Part shown: piece after piece, positions 2,115-64,000 of the stretch
Numbering within the stretch: position 1 is the first letter of the stretch
Layout: each line of letters starts with the position of its first letter
Assembly: GCA_902500055.1 (NCBI GenBank)
Contig: GCA_902500055.1_4131.1
DNA from: Escherichia coli
GTDB taxonomy: Bacteria > Pseudomonadota > Gammaproteobacteria > Enterobacterales > Enterobacteriaceae
DNA: 64,000 nucleotides
Direction: 5' to 3' (one strand)
The notes under the pieces: generated by a model
What the model was told of the DNA's origin: nothing
What the model saw: only the letters and a program-made list of their open reading frames with translations
The model's database searches: none
Translations under genes and position numbers: made by a program

Positions 2115-3224
2115 ATGTTACCTTTTGTTAGAATGTTTGATTATGGGAATATCACACCTGGTCCTAAAAATATAATTAAAGTTGGTGCTTCTACACAGGG
2201 TCAATTCTTATTGACAGATTCACATGATTTATATTACATAGGTAGAAATCAAGGTGGTGAATCTGGAAATGGAAATACCAACACAGTATCCTCATGGATA
2301 TTAGTAAGTACAGATGTTTCTAATTTTTTCGTGGGTGATCGTACACTTGTTATTATTAAAAATGATAATACGATATGGTCATCAGGTCAAACGTACTGGT
2401 TCACATCTTCCACAACTACTTCTTACAGTACTGTATTAGTTGATAGAACCAGTTGGTTCACAAATGCAATACCAGTAAGTGAAATTGCTAATATTGTATG
2501 TACATATGGTTTAATATTTGTACTTAGCACTAATTCAGTACTCTATGGTGCAGGGGCTAATGGATATCGTGGTGCTTTAGGTATTGGTTCATCATCAATT
2601 TACACATTAACTCAATGTGCTACTAATGTGCGTAAAGTAATGACGAATTCAAATGACAGTATGTATATTACATTAGATAATAAGTTATATAGTTCTGGGT
2701 GGAATGACAGGGGTCAGCATGGCACGGGGAACCGAACACAAATTAACACGTGGGGATTACGTAGTACTGGAGTAATAGATGCAGCTATTGGTGGACATAC
2801 ACTCAATTACTATAATGGTACATCATATTTCACATGTGGTACAACTCCAAACTTTCTTAGTTCAGATTCAACTACATTCAAAGCAGTTCCTGTAAGTACT
2901 TTACCTAATAATTCACCTTTGTTTATGACAAATTCAGAGGCAACAAGCACGGCTACGCAAATTATATTAACTAGTGCATATCAGAAAGGTATTGGGGGAA
3001 ACCGTGGTTTGGGATTAAACAATTCTCAAACGGGTGCTATCTATAGTGCTGCTAATTTACAATTACCTGTAGAAGTTAGTGAGATTAGTGATGTTGCTTT
3101 TAGTGACGGATTAACATCATTATTAACCAAAGACGGGAATGTATATAGTACTGGATCGTATTACGCCATTCCAGGTGCAAGTGCAGATGTTGCAGTCTTT
3201 ACTAAAATTGATTTACCAAAATAA
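2115..3224 (+). CDS. RCC1-like repeat protein with MLPFVRMFDYGN leader (paralog 3)
   Basis: Contains GWNDRGQHGTGNRT and GANGYRGALGIGSS repeats. It is joined to paralog 2 only by a GGAG SD, so the two form an operon. Confidence 0.85.
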   Translation: MLPFVRMFDYGNITPGPKNIIKVGASTQGQFLLTDSHDLYYIGRNQGGESGNGNTNTVSSWILVSTDVSNFFVGDRTLVIIKNDNTIWSSGQTYWFTSSTTTSYSTVLVDRTSWFTNAIPVSEIANIVCTYGLIFVLSTNSVLYGAGANGYRGALGIGSSSIYTLTQCATNVRKVMTNSNDSMYITLDNKLYSSGWNDRGQHGTGNRTQINTWGLRSTGVIDAAIGGHTLNYYNGTSYFTCGTTPNFLSSDSTTFKAVPVSTLPNNSPLFMTNSEATSTATQIILTSAYQKGIGGNRGLGLNNSQTGAIYSAANLQLPVEVSEISDVAFSDGLTSLLTKDGNVYSTGSYYAIPGASADVAVFTKIDLPK

Positions 3225-3230
3225 CATAAT

Positions 3231-3295
3231 GCCAGTACTCAAGTACTGGCATTTCTTTTTGGGGTAAATATAGTATAATGAATAAAGGAGGAATT
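3231..3295 (+). promoter_or_regulatory. Intergenic cassette: terminator hairpin, conserved TATAAT box and SD
   Basis: Hairpin gccagtactcaagtactggc (3231-3250), TATAAT at 3274-3279, AAAGGAGG, ATG at 3296. Confidence 0.75.
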
Positions 3296-4465
3296 ATGTT
3301 ACCTTTTGTGAGATTGTTTGATTACGGGAATATTGCACCTGATAAACCAAATATTAAAAAAATACTTGCTAACAACTATAATGTTGCTGTTTTAACAAAC
3401 AGTGGTGATTTATATGTGCGTGGTGATAATGCATATGGTATTTTGGGTTTAGGTCACAAAAATACTGTTACTACATGGACTTTTAGTACTTCTGGTGTTG
3501 AAGATTTTTGGATGGGAGCCACGTCGATAGTTGTTAAGAAAAGCAATAATGAAATATGGTACAGTGGAAGTTCAACAACTGTTGGTATGAAAGGGTCAGG
3601 AGTATCAATATGGACATCTGCTATGCCTATATTCAATACATTAACATTACCAATATTAGATATAGCCGTTAGTTATCAGACTACAAGTGTGTTACTATCA
3701 GACCAAACAATATGGAGTACTGGAGTAGGGTCGGATGGTCAGTTGGGTGATGGGACAACAATTAACCATGTTTCTGGTAGATTCGTCAAAAGTACTGTTC
3801 CTACCGCAGCAAATCAATTACCTGTTAAATTGTTTGCAAGTAATTTAATGCACGGTTATGTTACAAACCAAGGATGGTTATTTTATACAGGAAGAGTCAA
3901 TGCAGTTACAAGTTCAGGAAGTAAGTTATATAATATATATTATGGTGCTCCTACCAGCTTAAGTAATACAATTAATATAAAGTACTATGTGAATAATGGT
4001 ACTTCAATGGCAATGGCAATAGGCACTGATCCCACTGGTAAAACTATCATCGCAAATGGTGGTTCAAGAATATTTGGTGCACAAGCAGATGGGAAAGATG
4101 GTTCTCTCAAAGATTATAGAGCATTTGAGGTACAAACAGCATCACTAATGCCACCTGGTGATGTAGTAAGCATTGCTAACAATACTTCATATTATAACCA
4201 AGTTATTGCTACAACAGATGGTATATATTGTTGCGGCTACAATCAATCTACACAAGCTGGTATGTTAGGTATTGGTACATCTACTAATGCATTAGTATAT
4301 ACCAAAGCAATCGTACCTGATGGGTTTGATTATAGTAAGTCACAGATGGCAGGTAGTTATAACCGAACTTATATAACTGATGGTAATTTTGTATATAGCA
4401 CGGGAACAGATGTCACATATGGTGGCATTAGTAGTTTAGAATTTATATTAGATTCGCCAGTTTAA
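3296..4465 (+). CDS. RCC1-like repeat protein with MLPFVRLFDYGN leader (paralog 4)
   Basis: The start was moved to the MLPF ATG because the track ATG lies inside the SD box. Contains GDNAYGILGLGHKN and GSDGQLGDGTT repeats. Confidence 0.85.
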   Translation: MLPFVRLFDYGNIAPDKPNIKKILANNYNVAVLTNSGDLYVRGDNAYGILGLGHKNTVTTWTFSTSGVEDFWMGATSIVVKKSNNEIWYSGSSTTVGMKGSGVSIWTSAMPIFNTLTLPILDIAVSYQTTSVLLSDQTIWSTGVGSDGQLGDGTTINHVSGRFVKSTVPTAANQLPVKLFASNLMHGYVTNQGWLFYTGRVNAVTSSGSKLYNIYYGAPTSLSNTINIKYYVNNGTSMAMAIGTDPTGKTIIANGGSRIFGAQADGKDGSLKDYRAFEVQTASLMPPGDVVSIANNTSYYNQVIATTDGIYCCGYNQSTQAGMLGIGTSTNALVYTKAIVPDGFDYSKSQMAGSYNRTYITDGNFVYSTGTDVTYGGISSLEFILDSPV

Positions 4466-4471
4466 ATATAG

Positions 4472-4536
4472 GCCAGTACTTGATACTGGCTTTTCTTTTT
4501 TGTATTAAATATAGTATAATGAATAAAGGAGGAAAT
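4472..4536 (+). promoter_or_regulatory. Intergenic cassette: terminator hairpin, conserved TATAAT box and SD
   Basis: Hairpin gccagtacttgatactggc (4472-4490), TATAAT at 4515-4520, ATG at 4537. Confidence 0.75.
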
Positions 4537-5727
4537 ATGTTACCTTTTGCAAGAATGATGAATTATGGGAATATTGTGCCTGTACCACTACAAATTAAGA
4601 AAATAATACCAACTGATACTGAGGTTGTTGTACTTTATACCGACGGTCAACTATACGCACGAGGCAGTAATAGTTATGGGAAGTTTGGTAGAGGAAATAA
4701 TAATGCAGTAAGGTCGTGGACATTAATTAGAGAAAATGTCAAAGATTGCTGGATGACACAAGGAACTTTGTTAGTACAAGATAATGACTTAAATTATTTT
4801 TATTGTGGATATGGTAGTCATATTGGTTTAGAAACTAGTACTACATCATTTTTAAGTTATAACCAATATATTGAAAATTTGTACACACAAAGTTCAAGTA
4901 CTTCAATTAAACAGATGTATGCAGGTACTACGTGGTTTACTTTCTTAATGGATAATAATACAATATGGAGTACAGGGTGGAATAGTGCTAGACAATTCGC
5001 AGATGGTACAGGAACTACTTATCAAATATCAGATGGTTCATTTGTTAAAGCGGTAACACCAGATGTAGATATTGCACAAATACAGTCAACAAATTACTGT
5101 GCAATGTTTTTTGATACACAAAATAATTTATATATTGGTGGTAGTACATCTGGCATAAGTACTAGTACCACATGGACACCATTTAATGAATATACTTTGT
5201 ATAAGCCAAGTACCACATATACAAAAACATTACAATATACTGTTTGTTCATTTGGTGCTGTCAGTGCTTTAGTGGAGAATCCAAATACAGGAGCACGTCA
5301 GTTTCTAGTTGGTGGATTAGCTAATAATGGGGCATGGGGTAATAACACTACGAATAGTACAGCACTAGCAGTATTAGGGAATAATAGTACTACATTACCA
5401 TCAGGAACTTATTATTCAATCCATACTGGATATGCATCACAATCTAGTATACTAGTTACGAGTACAGGTGTATATGCAACTGGTTTAAATGCGAGTGGTT
5501 ATGCTGGTACATTAGGTGTTGGTTCTAATGTTACCATTGGTAAATTTACTGCATGTCCATTGCCGTCAGGAATAACATATTCTATGTATGATAAAATTAA
5601 AATATATCGCGGTTCGTATCGTACTTTCCTAACTGCTGATATGAAAAATATATATTCAACCGGAACGCATGATGATGGTGGTCCTCGTACAAATAGATAT
5701 GTACTGGATACTCCAAGACAGTTATAA
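4537..5727 (+). CDS. RCC1-like repeat protein with MLPFARMMNYGN leader (paralog 5)
   Basis: Contains GSNSYGKFGRGNNN and GLNASGYAGTLGVGSN repeats. The start was set at the MLPF ATG. Confidence 0.85.
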   Translation: MLPFARMMNYGNIVPVPLQIKKIIPTDTEVVVLYTDGQLYARGSNSYGKFGRGNNNAVRSWTLIRENVKDCWMTQGTLLVQDNDLNYFYCGYGSHIGLETSTTSFLSYNQYIENLYTQSSSTSIKQMYAGTTWFTFLMDNNTIWSTGWNSARQFADGTGTTYQISDGSFVKAVTPDVDIAQIQSTNYCAMFFDTQNNLYIGGSTSGISTSTTWTPFNEYTLYKPSTTYTKTLQYTVCSFGAVSALVENPNTGARQFLVGGLANNGAWGNNTTNSTALAVLGNNSTTLPSGTYYSIHTGYASQSSILVTSTGVYATGLNASGYAGTLGVGSNVTIGKFTACPLPSGITYSMYDKIKIYRGSYRTFLTADMKNIYSTGTHDDGGPRTNRYVLDTPRQL

Positions 5728-5733
5728 TATAAT

Positions 5734-5799
5734 GCCAGTACAGAGTACTGGCTTTTCTTTTTTGTATTAAATATATTATAATGAATAAAGGAGGGAATT
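5734..5799 (+). promoter_or_regulatory. Intergenic cassette: terminator hairpin, conserved TATAAT box and SD
   Basis: Hairpin gccagtacagagtactggc (5734-5752), TATAAT at 5777-5782, ATG at 5800. Confidence 0.75.
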
Positions 5800-6537
5800 A
5801 TGTTACCTTTTGGAAGAATGGTTAAGTACGGGAATAAAATTGAATATAAGCCACATGGTGAACAATTAATCACGACAATAGGAACAACACAATTTACAGT
5901 TCCTGCTGGCGTTACCGAAATATCAGTATGTGTTATTTCGCCGGGTGGTCAACGTGGTGCTGGTGGCGGCTTATCGTGGCGTAATAATATTCCGGTTACT
6001 AGTGGTGAGTACTTAAGTGTTTCTCTTACACATCCCAACACTACTACACCAGTTGAAAACGGTTTATATCGTGGAACTGAAAAACTATGTGTTAGCTTCA
6101 CTGGTGAATATAGGGTTGGTGGACTAGGTGGGAAAGCTGCTAACGCTATTAATGATGGTGGTGGTAATGGGGGCAACGCTGGTGTAAGTGGTGGTGCAGT
6201 CATTGGTGGTGGTGCTGGTGGCTACACTGGTAAAGGTGGTAACGGAGATGCAATCACTGGTGAAAATGGTGCTGGCGGCGGCGGTGGTGGTGGTGCATTC
6301 TATAATACCTCGTTCATTGGTACGGGTGGTGGTACTGGTATCATTGTTCAAGGTGCTAATGGCATTGGCGGTAGATACGATGGTTCATATAATGGTGGTG
6401 CTGGTAGTGGTGGTGCTGGTAAGATGTATGGTGGTGGTGGTAGTATATGGGATAATTTTTCTTATACGGCTGCTGGTGGTGGTGCTGTGCGAATAATATG
6501 GGGACGTGGGAGATATTATCCTAACAATTCAGTCTAA
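5800..6537 (+). CDS. Glycine-rich domain protein with the same MLPFGRMVKYGN leader (array member 6, not RCC1)
   Basis: Begins FTVPAGVTEISVCVISPGG, continues with long GGxGG tracts and ends GGGAVRIIWG. This is the layout of glycine-rich-domain proteins. Confidence 0.8.
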   Translation: MLPFGRMVKYGNKIEYKPHGEQLITTIGTTQFTVPAGVTEISVCVISPGGQRGAGGGLSWRNNIPVTSGEYLSVSLTHPNTTTPVENGLYRGTEKLCVSFTGEYRVGGLGGKAANAINDGGGNGGNAGVSGGAVIGGGAGGYTGKGGNGDAITGENGAGGGGGGGAFYNTSFIGTGGGTGIIVQGANGIGGRYDGSYNGGAGSGGAGKMYGGGGSIWDNFSYTAAGGGAVRIIWGRGRYYPNNSV

Positions 6538-6544
6538 AATATAG

Positions 6545-6608
6545 GCCAGTACAGAGTACTGGCTTTTCTTTTTGTATTAAATATAGTATAATGAATAAAG
6601 GAGGAAAT
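6545..6608 (+). promoter_or_regulatory. Intergenic cassette: terminator hairpin, conserved TATAAT box and SD
   Basis: Hairpin gccagtacagagtactggc (6545-6563), TATAAT at 6587-6592, ATG at 6609. Confidence 0.75.
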
Positions 6609-7718
6609 ATGTTACCTTTTGGGAGAATGTTAAAGTACGGGAATATAGCACCTGAAGATCCAAAGATAAAGAAAGTACTGTGCGGTCTTGATAATTTGTA
6701 CGTCCTCTATGGCGATGGCTCACTTTATGGTTGTGGGGTTAATACTTATTTTCAGTTAAACGTTGAAAATACAGCAACAAGAAATACTTGGATATTAATT
6801 TCAGAAGGTGTTACTGATGCATGGGCTGGGGCGTACAATATTCTTTATCTCAAGGGTGAAGAATTCATAATGCATGGAGTTACCACACAATTAGGCACAG
6901 GAAATACTACGATTCCGTTGGGTGGTTTGAATGTTACTTCTTCATTTCCACATATATCTAATATTAAAATGATATCAATTGGTGTAGATACAATGCACTA
7001 CGTTGATGCTAGTGGTTCGATTGTTTATGGTAGAGGCATGAATGGTAACTATTCACTCGGTGGTGGGTATTCCACGGCTCAGAGTACTTTTGTTTCAGTT
7101 ATTAATACCGGAGCTAATACAGTCCTTGATATATTGGGTACACAGAATAACACATTAATATTAACATCAAATGGTGAACTTCTCGGTTGTGGGAGTAGTG
7201 GGTATGGTTCACTTGGCGTAAGTCCAGGACAGTATACTACACTAGTAAGCAGGTTAACCAGTGTTAAACTGTTTGGTGGTAACAGTACTGGTACTCTTGC
7301 TTATTCAGCCAGCAATATATACAACGCAGGTTGGCAGTATATTGGTCAACTTGGTAACGGTATTACAACGAACACACAAGTATATCCATTTGCATTTAAC
7401 TCCACTACTATTGATAGTAAGATACATAAAATATCAAAATCAAGTGCGACTTCATATGTTAATATGTACGCAACAACCGAAGGAAAGATATACAGTACTG
7501 GTGAATTTGGTAGAAATGGTTCTGGTGGTGGTTTGAGTAGATTCACCAATACACTAACTTTAGATAATTACAACCCAGAAAAATCAGCATTATACACATG
7601 TGCACATTTTAGTATAGTATTTGATGGTAATAATCAAATTTATGCTTGTGGTTCTTTTTTGTATGTGCCAGGTCCTATTACCACGAACTCATGGTCTGCA
7701 ATTACAATGCCGAAATAA
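6609..7718 (+). CDS. RCC1-like repeat protein with MLPFGRMLKYGN leader (paralog 7)
   Basis: Contains GVNTYFQLN, GMNGNYSLGGG and GSSGYGSLG repeats. The start was set at the MLPF ATG. Confidence 0.85.
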   Translation: MLPFGRMLKYGNIAPEDPKIKKVLCGLDNLYVLYGDGSLYGCGVNTYFQLNVENTATRNTWILISEGVTDAWAGAYNILYLKGEEFIMHGVTTQLGTGNTTIPLGGLNVTSSFPHISNIKMISIGVDTMHYVDASGSIVYGRGMNGNYSLGGGYSTAQSTFVSVINTGANTVLDILGTQNNTLILTSNGELLGCGSSGYGSLGVSPGQYTTLVSRLTSVKLFGGNSTGTLAYSASNIYNAGWQYIGQLGNGITTNTQVYPFAFNSTTIDSKIHKISKSSATSYVNMYATTEGKIYSTGEFGRNGSGGGLSRFTNTLTLDNYNPEKSALYTCAHFSIVFDGNNQIYACGSFLYVPGPITTNSWSAITMPK

Positions 7719-7732
7719 TACTATAAAACTAT

Positions 7733-7796
7733 GCCAGTACTTTGTACTGGCTTTCTTATTTGTATTAAATATAGTATAATGAATAAAGGAGGAATT
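7733..7796 (+). promoter_or_regulatory. Intergenic cassette: terminator hairpin, conserved TATAAT box and SD
   Basis: Hairpin gccagtactttgtactggc (7733-7751), TATAAT at 7775-7780, ATG at 7797. Confidence 0.75.
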
Positions 7797-8966
7797 ATGT
7801 TACCTTTTGGAAGAATGTTAAAGTACGGAAATATTAAACCAACTCTTCCCGAAATAAAGAAATTGGATGGTAGTCAATTACATGTCGGATTACTTTATAG
7901 TACAGGGAATATGTATATGCGTGGTTCTGGATCGAACTACAAATTAGGAACAGGGAATGATAGTGATGTATTAGGTGGTTGGGTACATGTACCCTATGAA
8001 GTTGATGATTTTTGGGCGTGTGTATCCGGTACATTAATAAAGACGGTTGATAATAAGTTATATTGTGCCGGACTATACATGGGTGGATATTTTGGGGCTA
8101 GTGGTTCATATGTTAACTGGACTGAAGTAACTTCATTATTTGTAGGTATTGACGTGTCGCAAATAAAGAATATAGAATTTACGTCAGCAGGTACGTCAGG
8201 TAGTACACTAATATTGATGTTAGATGGTCGTTTATATGGGTTCGGTATGAACAGTAGATCTGAGTTAGGTGTTAATAACAAAGTTGTATCTCCCATTCTT
8301 ATAGATACTGGGGTAAGTGAAATAGGAGCACATAAGTTAGGCGGTTCATCGTTCCATTATATAAAAGGCGGTAAGTACTACAGATGTGGAACATCGGTTG
8401 GTAGTAATATTGGAAGTTCTTCTTTAACTACTTTTACGGTATTGAGTATTCCTGATAACGTTATATCTATGCAAATTTTATATGACAACGTACAGTTATT
8501 ATGTTTAGGAAGTTCTGGATATAGTATCTATATGGCTGGTTCTAATGATTATGGTGGAAGAGGTGTTGGTGGTTCTACTGTTTACACTACATTCAGGAAA
8601 ATAGATCTTACAGGATTTGGTGTTGTTCCCAGTGAAATACTATTTGAAAATGCCGGAAATGGTTATGTTAATATATCAACTGATAGTACTGGAGTATATA
8701 CATGTGGTGGTGGAGCGGGTGTTAACGGTTTAGGTAGACCAACTAATGTAATACCAAGTTCACAGTTGGGGGTAGTTCAGTTCAGTACTGGAGTAGAACA
8801 ATCAAATATAAGTCGTGTGTATTCACAGAGTTCGAGTTCTGTTATATATTGTATAGTCAATAATGAATTGTACTGGGCTGGGAGTAATTCATATTTTACT
8901 GATCAAACCACAAATACTGGTACACAATTTTCATTTATTAAGATGAAGAATATGCCTTCTGCTTAG
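7797..8966 (+). CDS. RCC1-like repeat protein with MLPFGRMLKYGN leader (paralog 8)
   Basis: Contains GSGSNYKLGTGN, GMNSRSELGVNN and GSNDYGGRGVGG repeats. Confidence 0.85.
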   Translation: MLPFGRMLKYGNIKPTLPEIKKLDGSQLHVGLLYSTGNMYMRGSGSNYKLGTGNDSDVLGGWVHVPYEVDDFWACVSGTLIKTVDNKLYCAGLYMGGYFGASGSYVNWTEVTSLFVGIDVSQIKNIEFTSAGTSGSTLILMLDGRLYGFGMNSRSELGVNNKVVSPILIDTGVSEIGAHKLGGSSFHYIKGGKYYRCGTSVGSNIGSSSLTTFTVLSIPDNVISMQILYDNVQLLCLGSSGYSIYMAGSNDYGGRGVGGSTVYTTFRKIDLTGFGVVPSEILFENAGNGYVNISTDSTGVYTCGGGAGVNGLGRPTNVIPSSQLGVVQFSTGVEQSNISRVYSQSSSSVIYCIVNNELYWAGSNSYFTDQTTNTGTQFSFIKMKNMPSA

Positions 8967-8973
8967 ATTTTAT

Positions 8974-9037
8974 GCCAGTACTTAACACTGGCTTTTCTTT
9001 TTGATTAAATATAGTATAATGAATAAAGGAGGATTTT
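8974..9037 (+). promoter_or_regulatory. Intergenic cassette: terminator hairpin, conserved TATAAT box and SD
   Basis: Imperfect hairpin gccagtacttaacactggc (8974-8992), TATAAT at 9015-9020, ATG at 9038. Confidence 0.7.
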
Positions 9038-10243
9038 ATGTTACCTTTTCCAAGGATGTTAAAATACGCAAATAAAATGAAAGTTCCTGAAGTGAAAGAA
9101 ATCTTTATGTACAATGGTTATAGTGCGTCAGTTATTCCAGCAACAGCACTCTTACTATTATATAAAAATGGAGACTTAATGGGTATAGGTGGAACTAGTT
9201 CACAAAACTATGGATTCGGAAATGGTGTACCTAATGCGAAAGTAAAAGAGTGGGCTTTAATATACCAAAATGTAAAACGTTTTAGAACAGCCCAAGGTTC
9301 TTTTAATTTAATCCAAACCGAAGATAATAAATTTTATTACAGTGGCGTAGGTAGAGCTATTGGTACAGGATTAAGTACTGTCAGTACTTATACTGATTGT
9401 ACTTCATATTTTACATCAGTATTCAATGCAACACAATTGTCGCAAATTAAGGACATTCAAATTGTAGGGGAGGGTATTTTTGTTTTACTTCAAAATGGTA
9501 CGCTATATGGAATGGGGGCCAATACACAGGGATATTTTGGTAATAACACAACCACAAGATTATCAACATTTACTTCAATTAATACGAATGTGGATAGTGT
9601 AAAAACAGGTTCAAGTGCAGTGATTGTGCAGAAAATTGATAAAACACTTTGGGTCACTGGTCAAAACACATGGGGTTCACTTGGTATAAGTAATGGTGAA
9701 ACTAACATTAGAGTATGGACACAAATGGGTGCATTAGCCAACAATACTGTTATACATTATGAACTTGGTGGGAGTGCATCATGGGTTGTATCTAAACACA
9801 ACACGAATAATACATATACAGTTCGTGCAAGTGGGATTCAATCGGAAGGTAACTTGGGTAATAGTTCAGCCGCTTCATCAGGGACAGTATTATCTACAAT
9901 CTCCACTCTACCAATATCAGATAATATGGAAATGAAATCAAATTCATTAACATATGGTGGGCTTACGGTTAAAACTAACAATTCACTTTATATGTGTGGT
10001 ATAAACACATATGGTAGGCTCGGTCGCGGTAATACCACATCAAGTACTACATTTGTAGTTCCAGTTGATGCACCTAAAGTTGGCAGCATCGAGTTATTCT
10101 GTCCAAGTGAATGTACAAATGTGTATATGGATAATCAAGGGGATGTGTATTTGAGTGGCTATATCCCACAAGCAGCAGGGACAACAGTTTCTGATTACTA
10201 CACTAAATTCCAATTATATCAAATACCCAGTCGTGGTATATAA
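9038..10243 (+). CDS. RCC1-like repeat protein with MLPFPRMLKYAN leader (paralog 9)
   Basis: Contains GANTQGYFGNN, GQNTWGSLGISNG and GINTYGRLGRGNTT repeats. Confidence 0.85.
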   Translation: MLPFPRMLKYANKMKVPEVKEIFMYNGYSASVIPATALLLLYKNGDLMGIGGTSSQNYGFGNGVPNAKVKEWALIYQNVKRFRTAQGSFNLIQTEDNKFYYSGVGRAIGTGLSTVSTYTDCTSYFTSVFNATQLSQIKDIQIVGEGIFVLLQNGTLYGMGANTQGYFGNNTTTRLSTFTSINTNVDSVKTGSSAVIVQKIDKTLWVTGQNTWGSLGISNGETNIRVWTQMGALANNTVIHYELGGSASWVVSKHNTNNTYTVRASGIQSEGNLGNSSAASSGTVLSTISTLPISDNMEMKSNSLTYGGLTVKTNNSLYMCGINTYGRLGRGNTTSSTTFVVPVDAPKVGSIELFCPSECTNVYMDNQGDVYLSGYIPQAAGTTVSDYYTKFQLYQIPSRGI

Positions 10244-61410: not shown

Positions 61411-61865
61411 TAATCATCGCCTTTTAGTAATTTACAAATTTCAATCATATGATAATAACATGTATTCCAAAATTGTCCATTAGTACTTCCAACATCATGC
61501 ACAGTACTTTGTTGGAAAACATATTCATCGTTGAACATCATTTTAATATCATCAATGTAAAATTCTGGTTTTGAATCATTATTGTATTCAATACTCGTTT
61601 CACCATCTGGATCAAGTGAAATTGATGATATGTCGTGAATTCCTCTCGGATTTGTTGGATAAATTCTCAACGTAAGAGGATAGAAGTCTGGATCGGTTTC
61701 ATAAGTATATTCGATTATGTAATAACCATCACCAGTAATTGATTGATATTTAAATGTAGTTTCAATTGAATTTGAGATGTTAAATCCCAGTTTCTTTATC
61801 TCATGTAGATGTGATAATATTTTATGTAAAGATCCTAAAACATGAATCAAATTATCAATTTTCAT
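61410..61865 (-). CDS. F-Q-x-S motif family protein
   Basis: Motif NDEYVFQQSTVHDVG. Confidence 0.7.
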   Translation of the reverse strand: MKIDNLIHVLGSLHKILSHLHEIKKLGFNISNSIETTFKYQSITGDGYYIIEYTYETDPDFYPLTLRIYPTNPRGIHDISSISLDPDGETSIEYNNDSKPEFYIDDIKMMFNDEYVFQQSTVHDVGSTNGQFWNTCYYHMIEICKLLKGDD

Positions 61866-62377
61866 TTACGATCCTTTGAAAAGTTCAGTTTAAAAGTTTT
61901 ACCAAATTCCATTGTAGCTTTACCCAGATTGTTAATATTTTCTTTCAACATTTCTTGCATCTTCCTAATACTTTCAATCCAGGCTTCTTCTTCGATACGA
62001 AGAATTGGTCGCAATCGTTCCTGAATATCGTTAAAACGTGTATTGAGTTCAACCAATGATTCATATGTGAAATCTTTCATATCGATAATAGTACTTCTTT
62101 GAAAGAATTCTTCTTCAGACAAATTACTTAAAATGATTTTATCACGACCAATAGATAATGTCAATTCATCATCTTTATTTTTTTTAATTACAATACTAAT
62201 AGGTGTTTTTAATGTAATGCAAATATCATGATTATTAAATGTTTCAGTTTGGTTTGACATTCTGAATTGAAGTTTCCCAGATAAAGCATGTACTGGTGAT
62301 GGTTGCTTTTTACCAGTAATAACATCTTCCCATGAATCGAGAATATTATTAATAATTTTAACATAAGGAATTGGCAT
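61862..62377 (-). CDS. F-Q-x-S motif family protein
   Basis: Motif SEEEFFQRSTIIDMKDFTYESL. The start is probably MPIPYVK (AGGTG SD). Confidence 0.7.
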   Translation of the reverse strand: MPIPYVKIINNILDSWEDVITGKKQPSPVHALSGKLQFRMSNQTETFNNHDICITLKTPISIVIKKNKDDELTLSIGRDKIILSNLSEEEFFQRSTIIDMKDFTYESLVELNTRFNDIQERLRPILRIEEEAWIESIRKMQEMLKENINNLGKATMEFGKTFKLNFSKDRK

Positions 62378-62419
62378 ATATGCACCTATGAAAAATCCAC
62401 GCATTGCGTGGATTTGTAA

Positions 62420-62950
62420 TTATTCAAGTATAGTAATTTCAATTAAACGAATTTCGATAAACTCGTTTTCAGTTTCCCATGACGTGCCAAATTTCTTTTC
62501 AAGTTCAGATTTCACATCACTTTTAAATTTTCCCATAGTATTAGGAATAATTTGTTTGGTTAATTTGTCGTAACCACAATAAAACATAGGTTTCTCCCTT
62601 CGAGATATTAGCTGAACAAAATCTTTTGGATATGCAGGTATGTTATGCATCACTTCATGAATACACTCAGTACTTGAATCTTGTACTTTGTACATTACAT
62701 TAAGTTTACCTCTGAAATTTGCGGTCATATCAACAATAGTTCCTTTACCCGATTTAAGTAAAGTTCCATTCTTTGAATGAGAGCAATAAAATACCTCATC
62801 ACCAATATTAGGATAATACAAATTAAATTCTAATTCAGATTTTACAGCCAGACGTTTGAAACTTTCTGCACGTTTTATATAAGTTTGGTGTTTGTTTATG
62901 TTCAAAAGAATATATCTCGTAGTAAGTGTGATATAACTGGCATAGTCCAT
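62420..62950 (-). CDS. Hypothetical protein
   Basis: Intact 176-aa ORF. Its first 49 nt overlap the methyltransferase 3' end. Confidence 0.65.
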   Translation of the reverse strand: MDYASYITLTTRYILLNINKHQTYIKRAESFKRLAVKSELEFNLYYPNIGDEVFYCSHSKNGTLLKSGKGTIVDMTANFRGKLNVMYKVQDSSTECIHEVMHNIPAYPKDFVQLISRREKPMFYCGYDKLTKQIIPNTMGKFKSDVKSELEKKFGTSWETENEFIEIRLIEITILE

Positions 62951-63762
62951 CCATTCCCAAGCATTTTGTATGCTTGTGTTGAACTACTAACTTTGAAGTA
63001 GTTTACATCAATTCCTTGCAACATGCAACACTCTTGTACTGTTAAATGACGATAGTCCACATTTCGCTTACCATGTTCAATAAGGAAATCCCTATCGATA
63101 TCAGGTTCTTTGAAAACAATTTGTCTTCTTGATTTATTAAAGTACTGGTTACAATCACCACCTTTAAAATAGTTAGCATCTATACAGTACGAAGCGGTTC
63201 TGTCAGTGTACCAACCATCTTCAATAATATCTTGAAGTTTAGGTGCATTGGATAATGCAGGTGGTATAAAAAGCTTATCAGTACTGTACCAGTAATATCT
63301 CTGCCTGAAGTGAGGCGTATAATGCTGGGAGTTTATCAGTACTGGTGCAACACCAATCTCTTTGTTGAATATATCCAATGATTCTTTTTTCATTTTAACA
63401 TTCTCAAACAAAAAATTCAAATTGGGATTTAAACTTTTTATGTGATTGAAAATGTCCATCATTGTGTAAAATAACATACTACGTGGATCTTGTAATCCTA
63501 ATTGTTTCCCAGCCGTTGATAGTCCTTGACATGGACTACCCCCGATAAGTAAATCAATTTTATCCCACTCAATATCCCATTCTCTCCATTTAGTTACATC
63601 ACCCAATTGGGTGATATCAGGAAAGTTAGCTTGGGATTCAGCTATTGCGTACTTGTCAATTTCGGATGAATAATATTTTTCAACAGGGATGCCAGCATCT
63701 TTTAATGCCATGTATCCCACACTCATCCCATTAAAAAGAGATAGTACTCGGATAGGTTTCAT
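62902..63762 (-). CDS. DNA (cytosine-5)-methyltransferase
   Basis: Motif I LFNGMSVG, motif IV GGSPCQGLS, motif VI FENVKM, motif VIII FRQRYYW, motif X LGNGWTMPV. Confidence 0.9.
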   Translation of the reverse strand: MKPIRVLSLFNGMSVGYMALKDAGIPVEKYYSSEIDKYAIAESQANFPDITQLGDVTKWREWDIEWDKIDLLIGGSPCQGLSTAGKQLGLQDPRSMLFYTMMDIFNHIKSLNPNLNFLFENVKMKKESLDIFNKEIGVAPVLINSQHYTPHFRQRYYWYSTDKLFIPPALSNAPKLQDIIEDGWYTDRTASYCIDANYFKGGDCNQYFNKSRRQIVFKEPDIDRDFLIEHGKRNVDYRHLTVQECCMLQGIDVNYFKVSSSTQAYKMLGNGWTMPVISHLLRDIFF

Positions 63763-63814
63763 ATAAAATCCTTTTTATATTGTTAAGGTACTATAATATA
63801 TTATAGCATCTTAT

Positions 63815-64000
63815 TTAGAAATCTTCCAAACTTTTTTCATCACACCATCGTGATGTACAGATGATTGCAGATGCCATAATTGAAGCACTTGCACGTCCTC
63901 CACCGAGTAAGTACTGGCTAATTACACCAATCATATTGAACACTTTATCATACTCGGTTAGTTGTTCAAAACCTTTCTTCCAATGCTGATATTCTTCTTC
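63815..64000 (-). CDS. Hypothetical protein, 3' end only (gene continues beyond the window)
   Basis: The frame is open from the window edge and reads ...EEEYQHWKKGFEQLTEYDKVFNMIGVISQYLLGGGRASASIMASAIICTSRWCDEKSLEDF with its stop at 63815. Confidence 0.5.
   Translation of the reverse strand, partial: EEEYQHWKKGFEQLTEYDKVFNMIGVISQYLLGGGRASASIMASAIICTSRWCDEKSLEDF

What the first reader, a model, noticed from the sequence alone, without database searches (positions are those of the whole stretch)
62902..63762. Orphan C5 cytosine methyltransferase with no adjacent restriction partner
All the classical C5-MTase motifs are present (I, IV PCQ, VI ENV, VIII, X GNG). The flanking genes show no endonuclease motifs. 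Its 3' end is overlapped by 49 nt of the next ORF. In a genome saturated with AGTACT, which has one C per strand, an obvious but untested idea is that this enzyme or another modification protects or marks that palindrome. The target-recognition domain between motifs VIII and X cannot be assigned by eye.
Basis: partly seen in the sequence, partly recalled or inferred. Interest (0 to 1): 0.4.

Follow-up and report, generated by a model that had tools for sequence, protein, structure and literature searches.

The report
Solitary DNMT3-like phage cytosine methyltransferase
This is an intact stand-alone DNA cytosine-5 methyltransferase gene of a jumbo E. coli phage, already annotated in its relatives; it looks most like the catalytic core of animal DNMT3 enzymes, and no evidence ties it to the AGTACT palindrome that saturates the genome.

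Summary
The ORF at 62902-63762 (minus strand, 286 aa) is a real, complete C5 DNA methyltransferase (Pfam PF00145, E 1e-33). All catalytic motifs are present and it evolves under purifying selection (dN/dS about 0.22). The window is an Asteriusvirus jumbo coliphage (121Q/PBECO4 group). The orthologue is annotated as a cytosine methylase in every relative and is mentioned in several papers, so the call is correct but not new. No neighbouring gene resembles a nuclease. The wider family (PHROG 116, more than 8000 homologues) sits almost only in phages and prophages, with no recurrent restriction partner.

What I add: by sequence and predicted fold, its closest solved relatives are DNMT3A/3B/3C catalytic domains. 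The gene is mosaic. In phages UE-S1 and A4 the orthologue carries a LAGLIDADG intein immediately before the catalytic cysteine.

The AGTACT idea is not supported:
- The RaK2 paper reports 5mC at CpG in a phage whose only C5 methylase is the orthologue, and AGTACT has no CpG.
- The AGTACT cytosine is mutationally cold.
- Related methylases occur in phages that avoid AGTACT.

The target remains unknown. In passing: GCGC is completely absent from this phage clade.

The parts
62902..63762 (-). Coding sequence of the C5 DNA methyltransferase (286 aa)
   Evidence: ORF. PF00145 E 1.2e-33. AF2 model pLDDT 89.9. dN/dS 0.22-0.24 against 121Q and UE-S1.
63721..63735 (-). Motif I (F10-N-G-M-S14), the AdoMet-binding loop, in the DNMT3-type variant
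   Evidence: Alignments. F10, G12 and S14 are invariant in 29 family members.
63526..63543 (-). Motif IV, GGSPCQ, with the catalytic Cys78 (codon 63531-63529). In the UE-S1 and A4 orthologues a LAGLIDADG intein sits between codons 77 and 78 (63532|63531).
   Evidence: Sequence read directly. Alignment. Intein domains.
63397..63405 (-). Motif VI, E120-N-V
   Evidence: Invariant in alignment A1.
63298..63306 (-). Motif VIII, R153-Q-R155
   Evidence: Invariant R153 and R155. Aligns to RAR of DNMT3B.
63052..63285 (-). Short target-recognition region (aa 160-237). The conserved core is DRxxSYCIDANYxKGG..KSRRQ, followed by a variable, dispensable segment at aa 218-236.
   Evidence: Alignment A1: C193, D195, A196, Y198, K200, K210, R212 and R213 are invariant. 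The variable segment is absent in 268-276-aa members.
63013..63051 (-). Motif IX (R238..E244..Q249-G250)
62950..62958 (-). Motif X, G269-N-G271
63800..63829 (-). Sigma-70-like promoter candidate, TTGGAA-18 nt-TATAAT with an upstream TG
   Evidence: Consensus scan, 10 of 12 matches. The total number of such hits in the region is not above the shuffle expectation, so this is a candidate only.
63769..63774 (-). Shine-Dalgarno-like AAAGGA, 6 nt upstream of the ATG
   Evidence: Read from the sequence.
62420..62950 (-). Downstream co-transcribed ORF of unknown function (176 aa from the ATG; more likely 161 aa from TTG 62905)
   Evidence: PHROG_28599, function unknown. Found by tblastn only in Asteriusvirus. 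Weak similarity (E 1e-6) to GAP32_391, the gene in the same position in GAP32. Start evidence. AF2 model unusable, pLDDT 47.
62393..62415 (-). GC-rich hairpin AAATCCACGCAATGCGTGGATTT followed by a T-run, a likely terminator closing the two-gene unit
   Evidence: The same position is annotated as a terminator in G17.

Best explanation
The ORF encodes a functional, solitary, S-adenosylmethionine-dependent DNA (cytosine-5) methyltransferase. It belongs to the phage-borne short-TRD family (PHROG 116), whose closest solved relatives are the DNMT3 catalytic domains.

It lies in the long array of small early-type genes. It has its own sigma-70-like promoter and forms a two-gene unit with a small ORF of unknown function, closed by a hairpin terminator.

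Mechanism, taken from the established chemistry of the family rather than tested here: the target cytosine is flipped out, Cys78 of the PCQ motif attacks C6, Glu120 of ENV protonates N3, and the methyl group of AdoMet is transferred to C5.

Inferred function: it methylates a short motif (2-4 bp, given the roughly 80-residue recognition region) on replicating phage DNA, and incidentally on host DNA. This makes the phage resistant to host restriction enzymes that cut that motif.

Inferred target: unknown. My best guess is a CpG-containing motif, either CpG itself or a subset of CpG contexts. I do not think it is AGTACT.
For: Identity and integrity:
- PF00145 E 1e-33.
- All motifs present and invariant across 29 homologues.
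- AF2 model pLDDT 89.9, pTM 0.88.
- dN/dS 0.22-0.24, and 0.13-0.15 even in the anciently diverged mosaic blocks.

DNMT3 likeness:
- The best PDB sequence hits are DNMT3B/3A over residues 2-282, E about 1e-24, against E 1e-14 for M.HhaI over the N-terminal half only.
- The top 50 Foldseek PDB hits are all DNMT3A/B/C, TM about 0.8.
- hhalign of the family profile against DNMT3B gives probability 99.8 and 34% identity over 254 columns.

Solitary status:
- No nuclease or defence hits in the neighbours.
- Neighbours of 48 bacterial homologues are integrases, SSB, AntA, NinG, helicases and N6/N4 methylases, with no recurrent REase family.
- Only 3 plasmid hits.
- The gene is solitary in GAP32, RaK2, Justusliebigvirus and ICP1.

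Early expression:
- Promoter and terminator.
- The CBB orthologue CBB_399 lies in the region its authors regard as early genes (PMC5259590).

CpG guess:
- RaK2 encodes two methylases. Only gp194, the orthologue, is of the C5 type, and bisulfite sequencing found methylated CpG (PMC3622015).
Against: No activity or methylome data exist for this phage.

The RaK2 bisulfite and restriction results are 'data not shown', and the motif is cut off in the text held here.

Virion DNA of the Asteriusvirus fEgEco12, whose methylase is 82% identical, was cut by SmaI, ClaI and NruI with the patterns predicted in silico (PMC13070987). From my own knowledge of supplier methylation-sensitivity tables, these enzymes are blocked by CpG methylation. 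So CpG cannot be fully methylated there.

Polarised substitutions on the window and 121Q lineages show no C>T excess at CpG (12 events at 693 sites, equal to the background).

The catalytic loop differs strongly between the window (PCQGLSTAGKQLGLQDPRS), 121Q (PCQAWSVAGKQGG..) and RaK2 (PCTDVSFAGKQEGLVKPDENGDGGTRS). Specificity may therefore not transfer between them.

The DNMT3 residues that read CpG (K777 and N779 in DNMT3B) are not clearly conserved.
Confidence: 0.65

Rival explanations
1. One reading: the enzyme methylates the cytosine of AGTACT (or of GTAC). This would protect or mark the roughly one-per-330-bp palindrome that saturates the genome.
For: AGTACT is 8.8-fold enriched. It occurs in all three reading frames and is 3.5-fold above synonymous-codon shuffles, so it is selected at the DNA level. 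The enrichment co-occurs with the methylase in Asteriusvirus, GAP32 and RaK2. A 50-kb sample of the more distant PA5oct has neither the enrichment nor any methylase mentioned in its paper. No published digest used ScaI or RsaI, so it is not directly excluded.
Against: - RaK2 bisulfite reports methylated CpG, not CpT.
- The GTAC cytosine is a C>T cold spot: 1 event at 346 sites against 5.9 expected. Only 3 of 26 changes at AGTACT sites that differ from 121Q are of the deamination type.
- GGTACC and CGTACG are absent (0 sites each) despite the GTAC excess.
- Short-form homologues sit in contigs with GTAC at 0.37-0.54 of expectation. Justusliebigvirus has 0 AGTACT sites against 14 expected.
- A recognition region of about 80 residues is small for a 6-bp site (inference).
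- A(5mC) is an McrBC substrate (R-5mC), yet Sharanji and slurp01 grow on E. coli MG1655. The McrBC specificity is from my own knowledge.
- The AGTACT methylation described in a virus (mollivirus) was detected by SMRT, whose motifs were N4mC or 6mA types (PMC7253447).
Confidence: 0.08
2. The methylase and the translationally coupled downstream ORF form a cryptic two-component system, either restriction-modification or toxin-antidote. On this reading the methylase is not truly orphan.
For: The two genes share one promoter and one terminator, and they overlap. A weakly similar gene sits in the same position in GAP32.
Against: The downstream protein has no nuclease, PD-(D/E)xK or HNH signature in any library. 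It is absent downstream of RaK2 gp194 (the next gene is a 69-aa ORF) and absent from the other family members. Predicted secondary structure is a small beta-rich core, but the model is too poor to use.
Confidence: 0.05
3. The enzyme acts mainly on host DNA as part of early takeover, at a motif the phage has purged from itself such as GCGC. It could mark the chromosome for a methyl-directed nuclease or interfere with host processes.
For: The gene has an early-region location and a host-type promoter. GCGC is absent from every Rak2-like sequence examined: window, 121Q, G17, Sharanji, A4, UE-S1, GAP32 and RaK2. About 175 sites would be expected from base composition in the four large samples.
Against: This is pure inference. 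Family members at 54% identity sit in phages with 2-4-fold excess of GCGC. RaK2 virion DNA itself is reported to be methylated, so phage DNA is a substrate.
Confidence: 0.07
4. It is a DNMT2-like tRNA cytosine-5 methyltransferase serving the phage's many tRNAs, not a DNA methylase.
For: It lies in a region rich in tRNA genes in relatives. An invariant Cys begins the TRD core (CIDANY), reminiscent of the CFT motif of DNMT2 (the CFT motif is mentioned in PMC3227630; the resemblance is my own reading).
Against: DNMT2 matches cover only the N-terminal half, at E 5e-9 to 3e-7, against full-length E 1e-24 for DNMT3. In three contigs examined the family sits among phage replication or packaging genes, with no tRNA gene called nearby. 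RaK2 DNA carries 5mC.
Confidence: 0.03

Closest known systems
Orthologous annotated methylases of Rak2-like jumbo phages: 121Q gp91, G17_00216, Sharanji gp251, phAPEC6, PBECO4, GAP32_390, CBB_399, RaK2 gp194
   Same: Same gene in the same genomic position, at 68-97% protein identity. Already called a C5 methylase in the records and in papers. A 100%-identical protein, P0001, is in NCBI.
   Different: The window allele has a rewritten central block (motifs IV-VI, GGSPCQGLS...) and a variant TRD tail relative to 121Q. It lacks the intein present in UE-S1 and A4.
Mammalian DNMT3A/3B/3C catalytic domains
   Same: Best sequence and fold matches among all solved structures. Same length (about 285 aa), the same motif I variant, a very short recognition region, and 28-34% identity over the whole domain. 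RaK2 data suggest CpG methylation as well.
   Different: No PWWP or ADD regulatory domains. Motif X is the bacterial GNGW rather than GRSW. The TRD-loop residues that read CpG are not clearly conserved. Oligomerisation and partner proteins were not tested.
Other phage-borne solitary C5 methylases of PHROG 116 (Justusliebigvirus 'Dcm-like', Vibrio phage ICP1, Bacteroides, Cellulophaga and Vibrio phages, many prophages)
   Same: 44-56% identity, the same conserved TRD core, always without a restriction partner.
   Different: The 320-330-aa members carry an extra 45-residue TRD insert. Their genomes lack the AGTACT excess and the GCGC absence.
Type II modification methylases M.HhaI and M.HaeIII (the names used in some automatic annotations)
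   Same: Same fold, motif order and chemistry.
   Different: Similarity is confined to the N-terminal half (E 1e-13 to 1e-14). The TRDs are unrelated, there is no cognate endonuclease, and GCGC does not occur in the phage. The labels 'HaeIII' and 'HpaII' in databases carry no information about specificity.

Membership tests
DNA (cytosine-5) methyltransferase, Pfam PF00145 / TIGR00675 | Ordered motifs I, IV (PC with the catalytic Cys), VI (ENV), VIII (RxR), IX and X (GNG), not permuted | tested here: met
   Motif I is the FxGxS variant.
DNA (cytosine-5) methyltransferase, Pfam PF00145 / TIGR00675 | Two-domain class I methyltransferase fold | tested here: met
   AF2 model pLDDT 89.9. Foldseek PDB hits E 1e-23, TM 0.8.
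DNA (cytosine-5) methyltransferase, Pfam PF00145 / TIGR00675 | Transfers methyl from AdoMet to C5 of cytosine in DNA | not testable with these tools
   Indirect only: purifying selection and the reported 5mC in RaK2 DNA.
Type II restriction-modification system | Cognate restriction endonuclease encoded next to the methylase | tested here: not met
   No nuclease or defence family in the neighbours, and none recurrent in 48 homologous loci. Several neighbours are of unknown function, so an unrecognised nuclease is not strictly excluded.
Eukaryotic DNMT3 family | Catalytic domain of DNMT3 type (short TRD, about 285 aa) | tested here: met
Eukaryotic DNMT3 family | N-terminal PWWP and ADD chromatin-reading domains | tested here: not met
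   The protein starts 3 residues before motif I, and Pfam finds only PF00145.
Eukaryotic DNMT3 family | CpG read-out by TRD-loop residues (R836/N838 in 3A, K777/N779 in 3B) | tested here: inconclusive
   The profile alignment of this stretch is gapped and low-confidence, with no clear equivalents.
AGTACT-specific (ScaI-type) or GTAC-specific modification methylase | Methylation of the C in AGTACT or GTAC | not testable with these tools
   Indirect tests all point against it: a C>T cold spot, GGTACC and CGTACG absent, homologues in GTAC-poor phages, and CpG reported in RaK2.
5mC-based hypermodification pathway (methylase plus TET/JBP dioxygenase plus glycosyltransferase) | TET/JBP or glycosyltransferase genes adjacent to the methylase | tested here: not met
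   No such Pfam families in five genes downstream and six genes upstream.
DNMT2-type tRNA methyltransferase | Full-length similarity to DNMT2 including the CFT motif in the TRD | tested here: not met
   DNMT2 matches cover only residues 1-128. The TRD reads CIDANY, not CFT.
Intein-containing gene | Hint plus homing-endonuclease insertion in frame | tested here: not met
   Absent from the window gene. Present in the UE-S1 and A4 orthologues at P77|C78.

The most novel reading that the evidence does not exclude
The methylase, the eight-fold excess of AGTACT and the total absence of GCGC are three parts of one clade-specific self/non-self scheme. The phage would mark a dense private palindrome, or be free of a motif that its own or a host nuclease attacks, so that phage DNA can be told apart from host DNA without base replacement. 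A milder novel reading, at roughly 0.3 probability, is that this 286-aa protein is a minimal stand-alone CpG or CpG-subset methylase, representing the viral kin of the DNMT3 catalytic core.
Probability: 0.07. Interest if true: 0.7.

Novelty: already known. Interest (0 to 1): 0.22.

Why it matters
As a gene call it adds nothing. The orthologue is annotated in more than 30 published genomes, and an identical protein is already in NCBI.

It has modest practical value. Asteriusviruses are being proposed for phage therapy, and which restriction systems their methylase defeats affects host range. A 286-aa DNMT3-like enzyme with a short target would also be a compact methylation tool.

The side observations are more interesting than the finding itself: an intein split exactly at the catalytic cysteine in some alleles, a mosaic homing-site region, the clade-wide AGTACT excess, and the absolute GCGC avoidance.

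Tried and rejected
1. Target assignment by homology. No characterised close relative turned up in the PDB, in plasmids or in database names (names such as 'HpaII' and 'HaeIII' are automatic). REBASE is not available here.

2. Target assignment through a linked endonuclease in bacterial homologues. I scanned 148 neighbour proteins from 48 loci against Pfam and found only prophage genes.

3. Mutational footprint of 5mC. Unpolarised window-versus-121Q differences and substitutions polarised with fEgEco12 as outgroup show no hot spot at CpG, ACGT, GC, CATG or TGCA, and a cold spot at GTAC. Only 98-158 C>T events were available, so power is low.

4. Protected-site logic, in which the target should escape palindrome avoidance. 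Four C-containing 4-mers (ACGT, TGCA, CATG, GTAC) are not depleted in the three Rak2-like genera. The pattern is not shared by other family members, and CpG-context words show nothing special after Markov correction.

5. Structure of the downstream ORF. The alignment has only 5 close sequences and the model reaches pLDDT 47, so I did not run a fold search.

6. Transfer of DNMT3 CpG-reading residues. The alignment is too weak in the TRD loop.

7. Whether PA5oct truly lacks a homologue was not checked over its whole genome.
Full report
**What is there.** The minus strand of 62902-63762 holds a 286-codon ORF from ATG to TGA. It matches the C-5 cytosine DNA methylase family at E 1.2e-33 in Pfam, the dcm superfamily model of NCBIfam above its cut-off, and PHROG_116 'DNA methyltransferase' over its full length. 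Each is invariant or nearly so in an alignment of 29 homologues down to 53% identity. An AlphaFold model built on that alignment is confident (pLDDT 89.9, pTM 0.88).

**Where the window comes from.** The 2 kb around the gene is 92-94% identical to about 33 Asteriusvirus jumbo coliphages, including 121Q, PBECO4, G17, Sharanji, phAPEC6 and UE-S1. Most of the window is 97-98% identical to 121Q. In those records the orthologue is already annotated as a DNA cytosine methyltransferase, sometimes with meaningless automatic labels such as 'HaeIII' or 'HpaII'. The phAPEC6, UE-S1, Sharanji, CBB and RaK2 papers all mention it as presumed anti-restriction equipment. A 100%-identical protein is in NCBI (P0001). 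The gene call is therefore right but not new.

**Is it orphan?** Five downstream ORFs in the window, and the upstream genes taken from the collinear 121Q, give no hit to any nuclease or defence family in Pfam, NCBIfam, PHROGs or PADLOC.

- It is nearly confined to phages and prophages, with 253 phage records and only 3 plasmids.
- In 48 bacterial loci, 148 neighbouring proteins were integrases, SSB, AntA/KilAC, NinG, helicases, N6/N4 methylases and similar. No restriction-enzyme family recurred.
- In GAP32, RaK2, Justusliebigvirus EmilieFrey, ICP1 and three metagenomic siphovirus contigs the gene is likewise alone.

'Solitary' is well supported, with the usual caveat that the neighbours are of unknown function.

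**Local anatomy.**
- A sigma-70-like promoter candidate (TTGGAA-18-TATAAT with an upstream TG, 63829-63800) and an AAAGGA ribosome-binding site precede the ATG.
- A GC-rich hairpin with a T-run at 62415-62393 follows the next ORF. G17 annotates a terminator at the same place.
- The methylase and the following small ORF therefore look like a two-gene unit.
- The ORF overlaps the methylase by 49 nt only if its first ATG is used. 121Q annotates a start that in the window is TTG 62905, overlapping the stop as TTTTGA. The most divergent homologue (P0124, 71% identical) begins exactly there. I consider the 4-nt overlap more likely.
- The downstream protein occurs only in Asteriusvirus by tblastn. 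It has a weak similarity (E 1e-6 in a pairwise test) to the gene in the same position in GAP32. It has no recognisable domain, and its structure model was too poor to use (pLDDT 47).

**What kind of methylase.** Among all solved structures, the best sequence matches are the catalytic domains of mammalian DNMT3B and DNMT3A, aligned over residues 2-282 at E about 1e-24. M.HhaI and M.HaeIII match only the N-terminal half at E 1e-13 to 1e-14, and DNMT2 is weaker still. The 50 best Foldseek hits in the PDB are all DNMT3A/B/C (E down to 1e-23, TM about 0.8). A family profile aligns to DNMT3B at 99.8% probability and 34% identity over 254 columns.

Shared features are the length, the motif I variant, the N-terminal PIRVLSLF(D/N)G stretch and a very short recognition region. 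The phage protein keeps the bacterial GNGW motif X and has no PWWP or ADD domains. It therefore resembles the DNMT3 core but is not a DNMT3. This is not new either: viromics pipelines routinely label such phage genes 'DNMT3A' through KEGG. An independent prokaryotic origin of DNMT3 has also been argued before.

**Evolution of the gene.** dN/dS is 0.22 against 121Q and 0.24 against UE-S1, so the protein is maintained by selection. The gene is strikingly mosaic.
- It is 97-100% identical to UE-S1 at both ends, but only 60-78% identical to any relative between nt 180 and 420 (motifs IV-VI).
- A second block (nt 630-750) diverges from 121Q.
- In both blocks synonymous sites are saturated, while dN/dS in the central block stays at about 0.14.

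In UE-S1 and A4 the orthologous ORF is 626 and 632 codons long. A 340- or 346-residue insertion sits exactly between P77 and the catalytic C78 (GGFP|CFPAGT...VVHN|CQAWS). It carries Hint, intein-splicing and LAGLIDADG domains. The window allele has no intein, and its sequence around the insertion point is rewritten. That pattern is what intein homing and escape from it would produce, but I did not test this.

**The AGTACT question.** The enrichment is real and strong.
- 193 sites against 19.5 +/- 4.4 expected, 8.8-fold over base composition.
- Present in all three reading frames and in intergenic DNA.
- 165 sites in genes against 46.6 +/- 6 in synonymous-codon shuffles.
- Shared by GAP32 (7.0-fold) and RaK2 (7.1-fold), but not by PA5oct, Justusliebigvirus or ICP1.

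The only argument linking it to the methylase is co-occurrence in that one clade.

Against the link:

1. The RaK2 paper states that RaK2 encodes two methylases, gp194 and gp447. It also states that bisulfite-treated DNA 'contains methylated CmpG', and that the DNA is cut only by enzymes insensitive to Dam, Dcm, CpG and EcoKI methylation (PMC3622015). The data are not shown and the motif is cut off in the text held here. gp194 is the orthologue and AGTACT has no CpG.
2. With fEgEco12 as outgroup, the cytosine of GTAC changed to T once in 346 sites, against a background of 0.017 per site. Of 26 changes at the 23 AGTACT sites not shared with 121Q, only 3 are C5>T or G2>A. The site is conserved, not a deamination hot spot.
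3. GGTACC and CGTACG are absent although GTAC is 2.5-fold enriched.
4. Short-form homologues at 54% identity lie in contigs where GTAC is at 0.37-0.54 of expectation.
5. From general knowledge, A-5mC is a McrBC target, yet Sharanji and slurp01 were isolated on E. coli MG1655.

None of these is decisive. I put the AGTACT/GTAC hypothesis at about 0.08.

**What the target might be.** The RaK2 statement and the DNMT3 likeness point to CpG. However, fEgEco12 virion DNA was cut by SmaI, ClaI, NruI, HindIII, SexAI and others with the patterns predicted in silico (PMC13070987). From my own knowledge, SmaI, ClaI and NruI are blocked by CpG methylation. Full CpG methylation is therefore excluded for that Asteriusvirus, whose methylase is 82% identical and intact.

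CpG sites also show no excess of C>T changes. CpG is depleted (0.73) with a CA/TG excess (1.24) in the window, but the same is true of many AT-rich genomes and not of all carriers of the family.

A subset of CpG contexts such as ACGT would fit both papers. ACGT is the only CpG-containing palindromic tetramer that is not depleted in the window and GAP32; in RaK2 it is about as depleted as TCGA. This is conjecture. The catalytic loop differs between RaK2, 121Q and the window, so specificities may differ. I leave the target as unknown, with CpG-containing motifs favoured at about 0.35-0.4.

**Verdict.** This is an ordinary, correctly recognised, already annotated solitary phage C5 methyltransferase. 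The proposed connection to AGTACT is unsupported and mildly contradicted. The finding itself deserves a low score. The GCGC absence, the AGTACT excess across three phage genera and the intein at the catalytic cysteine of some alleles are the things worth a separate look.

Noticed in passing
window 1-64000; also L001-L004, L007, L008, L089, L090: GCGC does not occur at all in the window (53 expected from base composition, 24.7 +/- 4.2 in synonymous-codon shuffles). It is also absent from the sampled parts of 121Q (70 kb), G17, Sharanji, A4, UE-S1, GAP32 (41 kb) and RaK2 (41 kb). It is normal or over-represented in PA5oct, Justusliebigvirus and three other methylase-carrying phage contigs. Other GC-rich tetramers are only 2-3-fold depleted, so something specific acts on GCGC in this clade.
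   Followed up: partly
window 1-64000; L003, L004, L007/L008: The AGTACT excess (7-9-fold) is shared by three genera on three hosts: Asteriusvirus on E. coli, GAP32 on Cronobacter and RaK2 on Klebsiella. It occurs in all reading frames, is 3.5-fold above synonymous shuffles, and the sites turn over more slowly than other hexamer palindromes.
   Followed up: partly
L090:2403-4283 (UE-S1) and L089:2732-4630 (A4); insertion point corresponds to window 63532|63531: The orthologous methylase genes of phages UE-S1 and A4 contain an in-frame 340/346-aa intein (Hint plus LAGLIDADG) inserted exactly before the catalytic cysteine of the PCQ motif. That cysteine would serve as the +1 splice residue.
   Followed up: partly
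window 63343-63582 and 63013-63132: The methylase gene is mosaic. Two blocks (nt 180-420 and 630-750 of the gene) are only 55-78% identical to relatives that are 97-100% identical elsewhere in the gene. Two allelic forms of the catalytic-loop block (GGSPCQGLS and GGFPCQAWS) are shuffled among lineages.
   Followed up: partly
window 1-64000: 26 of the 64 palindromic hexamers are absent, all with four or six G/C (one search counts 26, matching the zero rows). They include GGTACC and CGTACG despite the GTAC excess. AT-rich hexamers such as GAATTC and GATATC are not avoided. GATC is at 0.46 of expectation.
   Followed up: no
window about 811-948, 3219-3364, 4464-4585, 5719-5836, 6535-6656, 7723-7841, 8969-9078: A repeat of roughly 110-140 bp recurs about every 1.2 kb. 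Each copy matches many positions in the 121Q region that holds a tandem array of paralogous 'RCC1-like DNA condensation protein' genes.
   Followed up: no
L006 (Vibrio phage ICP1, 49.5 kb) and L005 (EmilieFrey, 41 kb): ICP1 has no CCWGG at all (36 expected). EmilieFrey has no AGTACT (14 expected). Both are strong motif avoidance in other phages that carry a homologous methylase.
   Followed up: no
window 61862-62404 (minus strand): The 180-aa ORF two genes downstream gives a sub-threshold match to MutS domain IV (E 7.5e-4, 20.2 bits against a cut-off of 22), as does its 121Q orthologue. This is probably chance.
   Followed up: no
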